The notes below the pieces were generated by a model. That model was not told the origin of the DNA. It ran no database searches and saw only the letters and a program-made list of their open reading frames with translations. 64,000 nt of DNA from the human T2T-CHM13v2.0 reference genome, Homo sapiens. Made by a program: the position numbers and the translations under genes. The DNA is taken from the NCBI RefSeq assembly GCF_009914755.1, contig NC_060942.1; one strand, given 5' to 3'. This document shows, one piece after another, positions 4,188 to 30,060 of the stretch. The stretch's first letter is position 1. The number at the start of each line of letters is the position of its first letter.

Positions 4188-4331
4188 CAAAGCATTTACT
4201 TTGGTTAGTCGCCCGATCCACAAACACTTTCGAGGAGATGACATTACCGAAAGGGAGGAACATCTGCATCAGCTCAGCGTCCCCAAACTCCTGGGGCAGA
4301 TGGTAGATGAACAGGTTACAGCCCTCGGGCC
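4188..4331 (-). CDS. CELF4: CELF4 exon 11 (144 nt long form; 84 nt short form ending at 4248), RRM3 N-terminal part, [28 protein letters not shown][[20 protein letters not shown]]G
   Basis: Acceptor tcaccgcag|GG; donors TTCG|gtaatg (4247) and TTTG|gtgggt (4187), 60 nt apart and in the same phase. Confidence 0.94.
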
Positions 4332-9740: not shown

Positions 9741-9824
9741 CTTCTCTCTGCTGCTGGGGGATCATTGGAGGCGGCTGAGGAAAGGCCTGGCTTATCTGAC
9801 CATAGGCAGCAGGGTAGGCAGCTG
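9741..9824 (-). CDS. CELF4: CELF4 exon 10 (84 nt; 81 nt with the distal NAGNAG acceptor), [28 protein letters not shown]
   Basis: Acceptor ctccag|cag|, donor GAAG|gtgagt; lies within ORF 9619..9942. Confidence 0.95.
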
Positions 9825-10014
9825 CTGGAGGCCCAAGACAAGAAGCAAGAGCCGGCGACAAGGCAGAGAGTGGAAGCAGGAAGAAAGAGAGAGATTTCAG
9901 TGCAGGCAGTAAAAGCAGATCAGCCAAAAAGCGCCCTGCCACTCAGCCACTTAGGACAAAGCCAGCTTTCAGTTCCCAGACTAACAGAGGAGTTGCAAGG
10001 TGAAGAGTGGAAAT

Positions 10015-10375
10015 GGGTGTGTGGGTGTGTGTACGTGTGTGTGTGCGTGTGTGTACATTACATGCATACATGCATGTACGTGTGGGGATGTGTGTGTACG
10101 TGTGTGTGTACATTACATGTGTACATGCAAGTGTGGGTGTACGTGTGTGTACAGTACATGCATACATGCAAGTGTGTGGGTGTGTGTGTACATTACATGC
10201 ATACATGCATGTGTGTGGGTGTATGTGTGTGCGTGCGTGTACATTACATGTGTACATGCACGTGTGTGGGTGTGTACGTGTGTGTACGTGTGTGCGCGCA
10301 CGTGCACTTGTGTACATGGTGTTAGTGCATGTGTGCATACATTACATGCACACATGCACGTGTGTGTGTGTATGT
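10015..10375. repeat. Degenerate (TG)n/TACATGCA minisatellite in intron 9
   Basis: About five to six copies of a GTGTACATTACATGCATACATGCA-type unit separated by GT runs. Confidence 0.92.
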
Positions 10376-11599
10376 TTTGGGGGAGGCAAGTTGAATTTCA
10401 AATAGTGGATGAACCACATGTGTGCATAACACACAATCATGGATAATTAAAAACACCAAAATGGCCTGGACAAGATCACCCCACACCACCTGGAATCCAC
10501 AGGAAGGATTTCCCACTTCTCTGAGCCACAGCTGACTCCAGCTGGCAGGCCCTCACTCCCACTCAAACGGCACCTGTGTGGGAGGTGGGGGCCACCTGAG
10601 GTGTGGACTTGGCCTCTGGGAAGGCTGCCAGGGGGTAGTCCCCAGGGGCAGAGGACTGAGTTGGATAAACCTGATTGTCCAACTGGAAAGGGCCTGAGGT
10701 AGGACAGGAGTGGCCGGCTCCCTCCTCTGCCTGGCCTGGCTCCCATAGCAACAGAGCCTGAAGTCAGAGCTCAGGGGACCCAAGAGGTGACAGCACCTCC
10801 TCTGGGCTCCAGATGTGCCAGGCCAGCTTCACCTCAGTCCCCTCACCCCTTGCCAGGTAGCCCCACTGCACTCATGGGAGACAGCACTGGCTCTTCTAAG
10901 CACAGGGAAGAGAGACCCTGATCAGGTCAGGCAGTAGGACACAGGCTAGGCAGGGATGATGATGGGGTGCTGTGTAGTCCAGGGGTGACAGAAAGAGAGA
11001 AGCCTGGCTGACAGCTCGGCTTAGGCTCAGTGACCCCAGGCCCTCTGCTCACTCAGGGCTGTCCCTTCCCACCTCTCCTCCTCTGCTCCCTGTCACACCT
11101 GCTGGGGCCCCATCCTGCTGCCAGTGTGTGAGGAAGGGAATGGGGAAACGGCATCTCTTCTAGAGGCCCTCCTTCTCTCAAACCAGGCATCTGTGCTTCC
11201 TGGGCCAGTGACTGTGGCCCATGGTGGGCAGCATCCAGGTCCAGCCTCGCCTGTGGTGCTGGTGTCAGACCTGGTGCTCCTGGGCAAAGTGGCCCTGGAA
11301 GCTCCATGGGGAAGGGAAATCTGGCCTCAAAGACAGGTAACTGCCTAGCAAGGGTGAAACTTCCACCTGGCCTGCCCACTTGCCTGAAGTTCTGCCCAAC
11401 CCCACTGCAGGGGCACTCTCGGTGGCCCGCTGACAAGAAGGCAGCCTGGAGGGTCTCTGCCAGCACAGCCCTCCCTCTTTCCACTCTCTCTCCCCACCCC
11501 ATGCAGTGCTGGCCCCAGGCCTGAGGGGGCACTGGTGTCACAGGCGTGGAGAGATAAACGGAGTTGGGGAAGGAGCCGTGGGGACGCGTGGATACTAAC

Positions 11600-11665
11600 G
11601 ACCTGCATACTGCTGCACTCCGGCGTAGGCCTGCTGCAGGGGGTCCGCGGCGGTGGGGCTCTGTG
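11600..11665 (-). CDS. CELF4: CELF4 exon 9 (66 nt), [22 protein letters not shown]
   Basis: Acceptor ccctacag|CA, donor GGTC|gttagt (a second GT lies 3 nt upstream); DPLQQAYAG motif typical of CELF3-6; not captured by the ORF track in this frame. Confidence 0.93.
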
Positions 11666-28980: not shown

Positions 28981-30060
28981 ACATACACACACACACACAC
29001 CAATACATGCACCACGCATATAGCCCAACACACACATACGCATACACACACCAATACATGCACCATGCATATACCCCAACATACACACACACACACACAC
29101 ACTGCAATACACACACCACACATACACCCCAACACACACACACACACATACAGACACCAATACATACACCATGCATATACCCCAACACACACACACCCCC
29201 AATACACTCACAACACATACACCCCAACACACACACACCCCCAATACACACACCACACATATACCCCAACACACACACACACACACCCAATACACACACC
29301 ACACATATACCCCAACACACACACACCAATACATGCACCAACACATATACCCCAACATACACACACACCCCCAACACACACCAAAGCATATACGCCAACA
29401 CACACACACATACACAGCAATGCATTACCCCAACATACACACACAGACACACACACAATACACACACCAATACACACCAATGCATATACCCCAACATACA
29501 CACATATAGCAACATACACCCTAACACACATACATACACATACACACACCAAATAGACACACACCCCAACACACACAACCAACACCCCCACACACCCAAC
29601 ACACACACATACACGTACACACACATCAACACATAACTATGCACCCCAACACACACACACACACAACATACACACATATACACATACATACCCCAACATA
29701 CATAGACACACACCCAACTCACATCCCAACACACAAACCCAACCACCCAACATGCACACACACCCAACACACACACACCAACACACAAAGACACATACCC
29801 CAACACATACATAGACATACACACTAACATACACACACCAATATGCACACCAGCACCCACCCCTCAACACAGATACACATACACACACAGATACACACAC
29901 CCATACACTCCAACACATACACAAATACATATGTGCAGATACACACCAACATACACACACAGATGCACATACACATACACACAGATACACCAACACACAC
30001 CTCAACATACAGACATAACACACACAGACACACACCCCAATGCACATACACACACACACA
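28981..30060. repeat. 1.1-kb (CA)-rich degenerate minisatellite (UG-rich in pre-mRNA)
   Basis: Recurrent roughly 40-bp units of the type CCCCAACACACACACACCAATACACACACCACACATATA. Confidence 0.95.

What the first reader, a model, noticed from the sequence alone, without database searches (positions are those of the whole stretch)
10061..10358. Ten RBFOX UGCAUG sites packed in a minisatellite upstream of exon 10
Seen: plus-strand catgca (UGCAUG in the pre-mRNA) at 10061, 10069, 10124, 10157, 10165, 10196, 10204, 10255, 10345 and 10353, about 240-530 nt upstream of the exon 10 acceptor and embedded in CA-rich RNA. Known: RBFOX bound upstream of an exon usually represses it; hnRNP L binds CA repeats; exon 10 is symmetric (84 nt) and so can be skipped in frame. 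Inference: a repeat-built multivalent splicing module whose copy number could tune exon 10 inclusion.
Basis: partly seen in the sequence, partly recalled or inferred. Interest (0 to 1): 0.7.

Follow-up and report, generated by a model that had tools for sequence, protein, structure and literature searches.

The report
UGCAUG-rich intronic repeat in CELF4
A decayed GT/CA microsatellite in a CELF4 intron really does carry ten copies of the RBFOX binding word just upstream of an 84-base exon, but such repeats are common in the genome and nothing here shows that it controls splicing.

Summary
Ten plus-strand CATGCA (UGCAUG, all UGCAUGU, in the minus-strand CELF4 pre-mRNA) lie at the stated coordinates, 237-534 nt upstream of the acceptor of the 84-nt exon 9741-9824, in RNA that is 68% A+C.

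The sites are not ten independent events. They sit in six copies of one 22-nt core inside a 359-bp compound repeat (10017-10375). That repeat is 92% strictly purine/pyrimidine-alternating, as expected of a (GT)n tract decayed by transitions and re-duplicated in 39-55-bp units.

Similar motif-bearing CA/GT repeats are frequent genome-wide: 5,964 triple-ACATGCA matches against 394 for the control. The predicted RNA fold buries the sites more than other UGCAUG in the window, and two sit in a 15-bp hairpin. The exon has a consensus-like donor. Four of five paralogs show no comparable cluster. My literature searches found no report that RBFOX regulates this exon.

RBFOX or hnRNP L binding is plausible, since eCLIP papers report both on simple repeats. 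CLIP tracks, orthologous introns, exon inclusion data and repeat-length alleles could not be reached with these tools.

Verdict: a real, mostly ordinary intronic repeat and an untested candidate splicing platform. Interest is low to moderate.

The parts
10017..10375 (-). Compound minisatellite, GT-rich on the plus strand and CA-rich in the pre-mRNA; about six units with 39-55-bp spacing
   Evidence: TRF periods 39, 41, 51 and 55 with 2.3-4.4 copies and 72-83% matches. Six copies of a 64-nt unit at 70-81% identity. 329 of 358 steps alternate purine/pyrimidine.
10053..10074 (-). Core copy 1 (22 nt) with two UGCAUGU sites (10061, 10069)
10108..10129 (-). Core copy 2 with one site (10124); the other reads CATGTG
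10149..10170 (-). Core copy 3 with two sites (10157, 10165)
10188..10209 (-). Core copy 4, identical to copy 1, with two sites (10196, 10204)
10239..10260 (-). Core copy 5, identical to copy 2, with one site (10255)
10337..10358 (-). Core copy 6 with two sites (10345, 10353)
10325..10359 (-). Predicted 15-bp hairpin that pairs the two sites of copy 6 (opening energy 12-14 kcal/mol)
   Evidence: MFE and centroid structures; opening energies
9825..9937 (-). 3' end of the intron: AG-free zone of 111 nt, branch-point-like CUGAU (A at 9920) and UUUAC (A at 9910), and a ~75-nt tract (9828-9902) that is 77% pyrimidine with UCUU/CUCUCU words
9741..9824 (-). 84-nt coding exon, encoding the last 28 residues of the linker before RRM3. 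It has a tandem cagCAG acceptor (9824/9821) and the donor AAG|GUGAGU.
   Evidence: hub table
11500..11505 (-). Single UGCAUG in the same 1,775-nt intron, 95 nt downstream of the 66-nt exon 11600-11665

Best explanation
The feature is a locus-specific compound simple repeat. A (GT)n.(CA)n microsatellite decayed almost entirely by transitions, which keep purine/pyrimidine alternation and can turn TGTGTG into TGCATG or CATGCA. A stretch of about 40-55 bp carrying a double ACATGCA core was then re-duplicated to six copies. The ten UGCAUG words are a by-product of that history rather than ten selected sites.

The array is transcribed in neurons as part of a 1.8-kb CELF4 intron. Inference: it probably attracts some RBFOX (UGCAUGU) and hnRNP L (CA runs), as motif-bearing simple repeats do elsewhere. 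The words are partly base-paired, they lie more than 140 nt upstream of the likely branch points, and the exon has consensus-like splice signals. My best estimate is therefore little or no effect on inclusion of the 84-nt exon.

Shown here: the anatomy, the repeat origin, how common the class is, and the predicted structure. Inferred: protein binding and the lack of effect.
For: - Tandem structure.
- 92% R/Y alternation against 42% in the window.
- The 22-nt core occurs six times here. The other 6 of 12 genome matches each carry 2 mismatches, against 4 for the control.
- The 16-mer double site occurs 75 times genome-wide against 5 for the control. Triple ACATGCA clusters number 5,964 against 394. 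The paired-double-site arrangement gives 43 matches against 3.
- Opening energy has a median of 8.5 kcal/mol for the ten sites against 5.0 for the 33 other sense UGCAUG in the window. None of the 10 sites is below 2 kcal/mol, against 3 of 33 (Mann-Whitney p = 4.7e-5).
- The donor is AAG|GUGAGU and the pyrimidine tract is long.
- No comparable cluster lies within 10 kb upstream of the RRM3-start exon in four of five paralogs.
- CELF4 has 0 occurrences in the two held supplement files of the cortex splice-STR preprint.
- No report in the listings.
Against: - All ten sites are the extended form UGCAUGU, and 10 of the 12 site positions in the six cores are intact.
- Orientation favours the sense strand, 10 to 3.
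- 10 sites is in the tail even for a YR-shuffled tract (17 of 10,000).
- RBFOX2 eCLIP enrichment on motif-bearing simple repeats, and HNRNPL enrichment on simple or AC repeats, are reported (passages of PMC10300551; PMC7137325; PMC13174678).
- A 111-nt AG-free zone and PTB-like words are typical of regulated exons (the typicality is recalled).
- The fold is no more stable than shuffles (z = -1.06), and in-cell structure may differ.
- Unit divergence of 19-30% could mean the array is old and retained.
- The paralog check is a weak proxy for conservation.
Confidence: 0.55

Rival explanations
1. The array is a multivalent intronic splicing silencer. RBFOX on up to ten UGCAUGU sites, with hnRNP L on the interleaved CA runs, lowers use of the acceptor of the 84-nt exon in neurons. 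Repeat length could tune that effect.
For: Ten sense UGCAUGU within 534 nt upstream and no GCAUG in the 600 nt downstream. 17 CA runs. The exon can be skipped in frame. The long AG-free zone and distal branch-point candidates leave room for interference. RBFOX2 and HNRNPL do bind simple repeats, and HNRNPL binding rises with AC length. The rule that upstream RBFOX binding represses is recalled; one search shows only the downstream-enhancer half.
Against: There is no evidence that the exon is ever skipped. The hub table lists only a 3-nt acceptor variant. The only splicing changes I found in print for mouse Brunol4 concern 'exon 8' and a 3'-end exon (passages of PMC2898759). The sites are predicted to be buried. 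The nearest site is 237 nt from the acceptor. The donor is strong. The class of repeat is common. No spliceSTR is listed for CELF4 in the held files.
Confidence: 0.2
2. The array acts on the other flank. Together with the single UGCAUG 95 nt downstream of the 66-nt exon 11600-11665, it serves as a distal downstream RBFOX enhancer of that exon, since both lie in the same 1,775-nt intron.
For: UGCAUG at +95 of the 66-nt exon. The array lies about 1.2-1.6 kb downstream of that exon's donor at 11600. Downstream RBFOX binding enhances inclusion (passages of PMC5538552). Action of distal sites through RNA bridges is recalled, not checked.
Against: The distance is well beyond the 300-nt proximal zone used in RNA maps. 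I found no predicted long-range pairing to that exon, but I did not look for one specifically. The alternative status of the 66-nt exon is unknown apart from a 3-nt donor variant in the hub table.
Confidence: 0.06
3. The relevant property is at the DNA or transcription level. A 359-bp tract of nearly perfect alternating purine/pyrimidine is prone to non-B (Z-type) DNA, slippage and recombination. It could slow RNA polymerase II just before the exon, giving a kinetic effect on splicing, or simply be a mutational hot spot.
For: 92% alternation, with runs of 33-38 nt that are the only runs of 30 nt or more in the 64-kb window. Z-DNA propensity of such tracts is recalled.
Against: Nothing here measures DNA structure or elongation. 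The alternating runs are broken every 14-38 nt by GGG, TT or AA steps.
Confidence: 0.07
4. The repeat encodes a structured small RNA, a repeat-derived miRNA-like hairpin of the mir-297/mir-466 type.
For: Sub-threshold Rfam matches to mir-297, mir-466, mir-3149 and others, and to sno_ZL1. A 15-bp hairpin is predicted at 10325-10359.
Against: Every match is far below its gathering score, for example 35.1 against 90 bits and 40.7 against 64. The best matches are on the plus strand, antisense to CELF4. The fold is not better than shuffles (z = -1.06). These matches are most simply explained by shared composition.
Confidence: 0.02

Closest known systems
RBFOX2-bound, motif-bearing simple repeats seen in eCLIP (Skipper re-analysis, PMC10300551; passages read)
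   Same: Simple repeats that contain canonical RBFOX words. The paper reports that all six top RBFOX2 simple repeats in K562 cells, and 11 of the 16 called, carry an established motif.
   Different: Those are short-unit repeats (1-12 nt) in non-neuronal cell lines, and no splicing outcome is attached to them. Here the unit is 39-55 bp, the gene is neuronal, and binding is untested.
Variable-length intronic CA repeats bound by hnRNP L (eNOS intron 13, Hui et al. 2003, cited in PMC13174678) and splice-associated AC repeats in human cortex (same preprint)
   Same: CA-rich intronic RNA on the sense strand, with repeat length as a possible tuner of splicing.
   Different: Those are pure dinucleotide tracts. 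Here the CA runs are only 6-12 nt long, interrupted by the UGCAUG cores and by CCC, and CELF4 is not in the two held supplement files of that preprint.
Clustered intronic UGCAUG elements of classical RBFOX targets (fibronectin EIIIB downstream repeats; calcitonin/CGRP and F1-gamma upstream silencers). Recalled, no call.
   Same: Several copies of (U)GCAUG in a flanking intron with position-dependent effect.
   Different: Those are conserved, mostly non-repetitive, and experimentally shown to act. Here the copies arise from tandem duplication and neither conservation nor activity is known.
CFTR intron 8 (TG)m(T)n with TDP-43 (Buratti 2001, listed in the references of PMC13174678; details recalled)
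   Same: A polymorphic dinucleotide-type repeat upstream of an exon that modulates its skipping.
   Different: That repeat abuts the acceptor and reads UG on the sense strand. Here the repeat is 193-551 nt upstream and reads CA.

Membership tests
RBFOX-regulated cassette exon (intronic silencer type) | (U)GCAUG on the sense strand in the flanking intron near the exon | tested here: met
   Ten UGCAUGU at -534 to -237 and none within 600 nt downstream.
RBFOX-regulated cassette exon (intronic silencer type) | Motif conserved in orthologous introns | not testable with these tools
   No vertebrate genomes other than the window's own are held. As a proxy, four of five human paralogs show no comparable cluster.
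RBFOX-regulated cassette exon (intronic silencer type) | In vivo cross-linking of RBFOX to the site | not testable with these tools
   No CLIP tracks are available. The mouse-brain HITS-CLIP paper (PMC3992522) is not held.
RBFOX-regulated cassette exon (intronic silencer type) | Exon is alternatively included and responds to RBFOX dosage | not testable with these tools
   The hub table shows only a 3-nt acceptor variant. The listings and read passages contain no report.
RBFOX-regulated cassette exon (intronic silencer type) | Motif single-stranded and accessible | tested here: inconclusive
   Predicted opening energy has a median of 8.5 against 5.0 kcal/mol for other sites. Two sites sit in a 15-bp stem. 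This is an in-silico prediction only.
hnRNP L CA-repeat / CA-rich element | CA repeats or dense CA-rich words on the transcribed strand | tested here: met
   68% A+C; 56 ACAC and 47 CACA; 17 runs of (CA)3 or longer, the longest 12 nt.
hnRNP L CA-repeat / CA-rich element | hnRNP L binding and a length-dependent splicing effect | not testable with these tools
   No binding or genotype data. CELF4 has 0 occurrences in the held supplements of PMC13174678.
Minisatellite / VNTR | Head-to-tail units of roughly 10-100 bp | tested here: met
   TRF periods 39-55 with 2.3-4.4 copies. Six 64-nt copies with spacings of 55, 41, 39, 51 and 98.
Minisatellite / VNTR | Copy number varies between individuals | not testable with these tools
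   Only one assembly is held.
mir-297/mir-466-type repeat-derived miRNA precursor (Rfam RF04217, RF04052) | Score at or above the family's gathering threshold | tested here: not met
   Best scores are 35.1 against 90 bits and 33.7 against 85 bits, on the strand antisense to CELF4.

The most novel reading that the evidence does not exclude
A lineage-specific, repeat-built platform of six double or single UGCAUGU cores interleaved with CA runs co-recruits RBFOX and hnRNP L upstream of the exon that encodes the last 28 residues before RRM3 of CELF4. Under this reading one neuronal RNA-binding-protein family (RBFOX) sets the isoform ratio of another (CELF4), and human copy-number alleles of the array shift that ratio.
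Probability: 0.08. Interest if true: 0.6.

Novelty: new member of a known kind. Interest (0 to 1): 0.27.

Why it matters
CELF4 haploinsufficiency is linked to neurodevelopmental disorder and seizures (passages of PMC12221596). RBFOX and CELF proteins share many targets (passages of PMC5538552). A repeat that let RBFOX set CELF4 isoforms, and that varied in length between people, would be a concrete cross-regulatory link and a candidate splicing-QTL mechanism.

As it stands, the feature mainly illustrates how decayed GT/CA microsatellites generate dense RBFOX words by mutation and duplication alone. That is a useful caution for motif-count arguments.

Tried and rejected
- Mouse-brain RBFOX HITS-CLIP paper with target tables (PMC3992522): not held (id taken).
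- Literature searches. Search terms and counts:
  - CELF4 + RBFOX + splicing: 63 papers, 25 listed
  - UGCAUG + microsatellite: 8 papers
  - Celf4 + Rbfox1 + CLIP + cassette exon: 8 papers, 7 listed
  - phrases such as 'Celf4 exon' and 'splicing of Celf4': 13 papers
  - Brunol4 + isoforms + exon: 35 papers, 12 listed
  Judged from listings and the passages I read, none describes RBFOX control of a CELF4 exon or this repeat.
- Review PMC13326565: the phrases 'CELF4 isoform', 'isoforms of CELF4' and 'CELF4 transcript' are absent, and the three passages shown for 'CELF4 splicing' and 'CELF4 gene' do not describe isoforms.
- GTEx splicing tandem-repeat catalogue (PMC10078293): CELF4 occurs 64 times in one supplement file. 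The two rows shown have it as an RBP predicted in silico, not as a target gene. File 1 could not be searched, so this is not informative.
- Rfam: no family reaches its gathering score.
- Interspersed-repeat origin: rejected. The 22-nt core with up to 2 mismatches is found six times at this locus, and the other six genome matches each carry 2 mismatches, against 4 for the control.
- Exceptional RNA stability: rejected (z = -1.06; 16 of 100 shuffles fold at least as well).
- Paralog conservation: four of five paralogs show no comparable cluster. The chr1 paralog has four UGCAUG in and beside a 31-nt alternating tract about 7 kb upstream, which looks like an independent simple repeat.

Full report
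**Observation**

The region was read directly. A word search finds plus-strand CATGCA at exactly the ten reported positions: 10061, 10069, 10124, 10157, 10165, 10196, 10204, 10255, 10345 and 10353. Three minus-strand copies lie at 10071, 10206 and 10326. The hub places CELF4 on the minus strand, so the ten read UGCAUG in the pre-mRNA. Each is followed by U, giving UGCAUGU.

The exon is 84 nt. Joining the eight annotated in-window exons gives one open frame. The exon encodes the last 28 residues of the linker just before RRM3.

The number 'exon 10' is not verified. Downstream I could find only the exon at 4188/4248-4331 and a terminal coding exon near window -1050. The exon may therefore be the 11th of 13.

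**Is it more than chance?**

Over the whole window the hexamer is not enriched: 58 matches on both strands against 55.05 +/- 7.58 in shuffles, and 39 of 100 shuffles reach 58. Locally, 10 per 300 nt is the window maximum and the next best is 4. Shuffling the in-phase pyrimidine-purine dinucleotides of the tract itself gives a mean of 3.77 sites, and 17 of 10,000 shuffles reach 10. The local density is therefore real, but the sites are not independent events.

**What the sequence is**

Tandem Repeats Finder reports overlapping arrays with periods of 39, 41, 51 and 55 bp, 2.3-4.4 copies and 72-83% matches between 10025 and 10294. It also reports a 2-copy 8-mer, TACATGCA, at three places. A gapless family search finds six copies of a 64-nt unit at 70-81% identity, with spacings of 55, 41, 39, 51 and 98 bp.

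The six copies share a 22-nt core. Copies 1 and 4 are identical, and so are copies 2 and 5. Ten of the twelve possible sites are intact. The two missing ones, in copies 2 and 5, carry the same CATGTG change.

Across 10017-10375, 329 of 358 steps alternate purine and pyrimidine (0.919, against 0.421 for the window). The three alternating runs of 30 nt or more here are the only such runs in the 64 kb. Both TGCATG and CATGCA are alternating words that can be reached from TGTGTG by transitions alone. The simplest history is therefore a (GT)n microsatellite that decayed by transitions and then re-duplicated a 40-55-bp stretch carrying the double site.

**How special is it in the genome?**

| Pattern searched in the window's genome | Matches | Control (pattern read backwards) |
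|---|---|---|
| 22-nt core, up to 2 mismatches | 12 (6 at this locus; the other 6 each carry 2 mismatches) | 4 |
| 16-mer double site | 75 (3 here) | 5 |
| Three ACATGCA within gaps of 31 nt or less | 5,964 | 394 |
| Two double sites 8-38 nt apart | 43 (1 here) | 3 |

The core is locus-specific and not an interspersed element. The class as a whole is common. The listed matches lie mostly in CA-rich compound repeats. This locus is in the upper tail of a common class. Unlike most of the listed examples, ACATGCA here sits on the GT-rich strand, so the RNA context of UGCAUG is CA-rich rather than UG-rich.

**Surroundings**

The array lies in a 1,775-nt intron (9825-11599). Features near the acceptor:
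- No AG for 111 nt; the first upstream AG is at -113.
- Branch-point-like CUGAU and UUUAC, with their A at -96 and -86.
- A tract of about 75 nt that is 77% pyrimidine and carries UCUU, UCUCU and CUCUCU words.
- A tandem cagCAG acceptor, which explains the annotated 9821/9824 variant.
- The donor AAG|GUGAGU.
- No GCAUG in the 600 nt downstream of the exon.

The sense RNA of the array is 68% A+C, with 17 runs of (CA)3 or longer, the longest 12 nt. The same intron holds one more UGCAUG, 95 nt downstream of the 66-nt exon 11600-11665.

**RNA structure**

The 371-nt sense RNA folds to -107 kcal/mol. Dinucleotide shuffles fold nearly as well (mean -101.95, z = -1.06, 16 of 100 at least as good), so there is no evidence for a selected structure.

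The cost of opening each hexamer has a median of 8.5 kcal/mol for the ten sites, against 5.0 (quartiles 3.4-6.4) for the 33 other sense UGCAUG in the window. With pairs limited to 50 nt the medians are 6.0 and 4.2 (Mann-Whitney p = 4.7e-5 on the unrestricted-span set). The two sites of copy 6 sit in a perfect 15-bp hairpin at 10325-10359 and cost 12-14 kcal/mol to open. RBFOX needs single-stranded RNA (recalled), so the effective valency may be below ten. This is prediction only.

**Relatives**

No other vertebrate genome is held, so orthologous conservation could not be tested. As a weak proxy I located the RRM3-start exon of the five human paralogs. I then scanned 10 kb upstream of each on the sense strand.

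| Paralog | Sense UGCAUG in 10 kb |
|---|---|
| chr19 | 2 |
| chr15 | 0 |
| chr1 | 5 |
| chr11 | 2 |
| chr10 | 5 |

Only the chr1 paralog has a small cluster: four sites in and beside a 31-nt alternating tract. That looks like an independent simple repeat. The array is therefore not a family-wide feature.

**Literature**

Searches for CELF4 with RBFOX and splicing terms, for phrases about CELF4 exons, isoforms or splicing, for UGCAUG with microsatellite and for Brunol4 isoforms gave no paper that describes RBFOX control of a CELF4 exon or this repeat. This judgement rests on listings and on the passages I read. Specific points from passages read:
- PMC2898759 reports developmental changes in mouse Brunol4 'exon 8' inclusion and in a 3'-end exon.
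- PMC4132704 mentions BRUNOL4 as a tandem-splice-site case.
- PMC5538552 states that RBFOX typically enhances inclusion from the downstream intron. It also states that CELF4 and cytoplasmic RBFOX1 share most 3'-UTR sites.
- PMC10300551 reports that RBFOX2 eCLIP is enriched on simple repeats carrying canonical motifs: six of the top six, and 11 of the 16 called.
- PMC7137325 lists HNRNPL among simple-repeat binders.
- PMC13174678 reports that HNRNPL binding rises with AC-repeat length. It does not mention CELF4 or RBFOX in the text or CELF4 in its two held supplement files.
- The mouse-brain RBFOX HITS-CLIP paper is not held.
- One supplement file of the GTEx tandem-repeat splicing catalogue could not be searched.

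These two gaps could bear on the claim.

**Interpretation**

The most likely account (about 0.55) is an ordinary, locus-specific compound repeat whose RBFOX words are a by-product of mutation and duplication. It may bind some RBFOX and hnRNP L in neurons, but it has little effect on an exon with consensus-like signals.

Its premises are right and the precedents are real, but every decisive datum is missing, and the accessible evidence (structure, distance, how common the class is, paralogs) leans mildly against it.

Smaller shares go to three other readings: action on the upstream 66-nt exon, a DNA-level or elongation effect of the alternating tract, and a miRNA-like hairpin. In the last case the Rfam matches are all far below threshold and mostly on the wrong strand.

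**Novelty and score**

Motif-bearing simple repeats bound by RBFOX, and CA repeats bound by hnRNP L, are known kinds. At most this is a new member in an interesting gene. Interest is 0.27.

The boldest reading not excluded is that RBFOX and hnRNP L co-recruited by a length-variable array set a CELF4 isoform ratio. I give that about 0.08.

Noticed in passing
window 4188-4331 (minus strand): The exon that starts RRM3 has two donors: an internal one at 4248 (UUCG|GUAAUG) and one at 4188 (UUUG|GUGGGU). The 60 nt between them encode [20 protein letters not shown], the middle of RRM3. The hub table lists the short form for the selected transcript, which would drop these 20 residues in frame.
   Followed up: partly
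window 9821/9824, 11600/11603, 18226/18229, 20306/20309: The hub table lists four 3-nt tandem splice-site variants in this gene. I confirmed only the first, as a cagCAG acceptor that adds or removes one Ala. BRUNOL4 is named as a tandem-splice-site case in PMC4132704.
   Followed up: partly
window 28990-29400: A second compound repeat, CA-rich on the plus strand, so UG-rich in the pre-mRNA. It has five sense UGCAUG (29006, 29057, 29064, 29170, 29332) and lies deep in an intron far from any exon.
   Followed up: partly
whole window outside 10017-10375: Sense-strand UGCAUG outnumbers its reverse complement 33 to 12, ranking 9th of 776 word pairs. The binomial p is 0.0065 against a composition-matched ratio of 1.10. 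The top asymmetric pairs are GT-type words (GUGUGU 140 against ACACAC 26), so the CELF4 pre-mRNA is rich in UG-repeat-like words of the kind that CELF and TDP-43 bind (binding preference recalled).
   Followed up: partly
window 11500-11505: A single UGCAUG lies 95 nt downstream of the 66-nt exon 11600-11665, the classical enhancer position. Another lies at -277 upstream of that exon.
   Followed up: no
window 9825-9937: There is a 111-nt AG-free zone with a ~75-nt pyrimidine tract carrying UCUU and CUCUCU words, and branch-point candidates at -96 and -86. The layout resembles PTB-regulated neuronal exons (resemblance recalled).
   Followed up: no
window 10017-10373, plus strand: Sub-threshold Rfam matches to repeat-derived miRNA families (mir-297, mir-466, mir-3149 and others) and to sno_ZL1. 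All are far below their gathering scores and are most simply explained by shared composition.
   Followed up: yes
L031 (chr1 paralog), about 6.9-7.0 kb upstream of its RRM3-start exon: Four sense UGCAUG lie in and beside a 31-nt alternating purine/pyrimidine tract. This is a smaller repeat of the same kind in a paralog.
   Followed up: no
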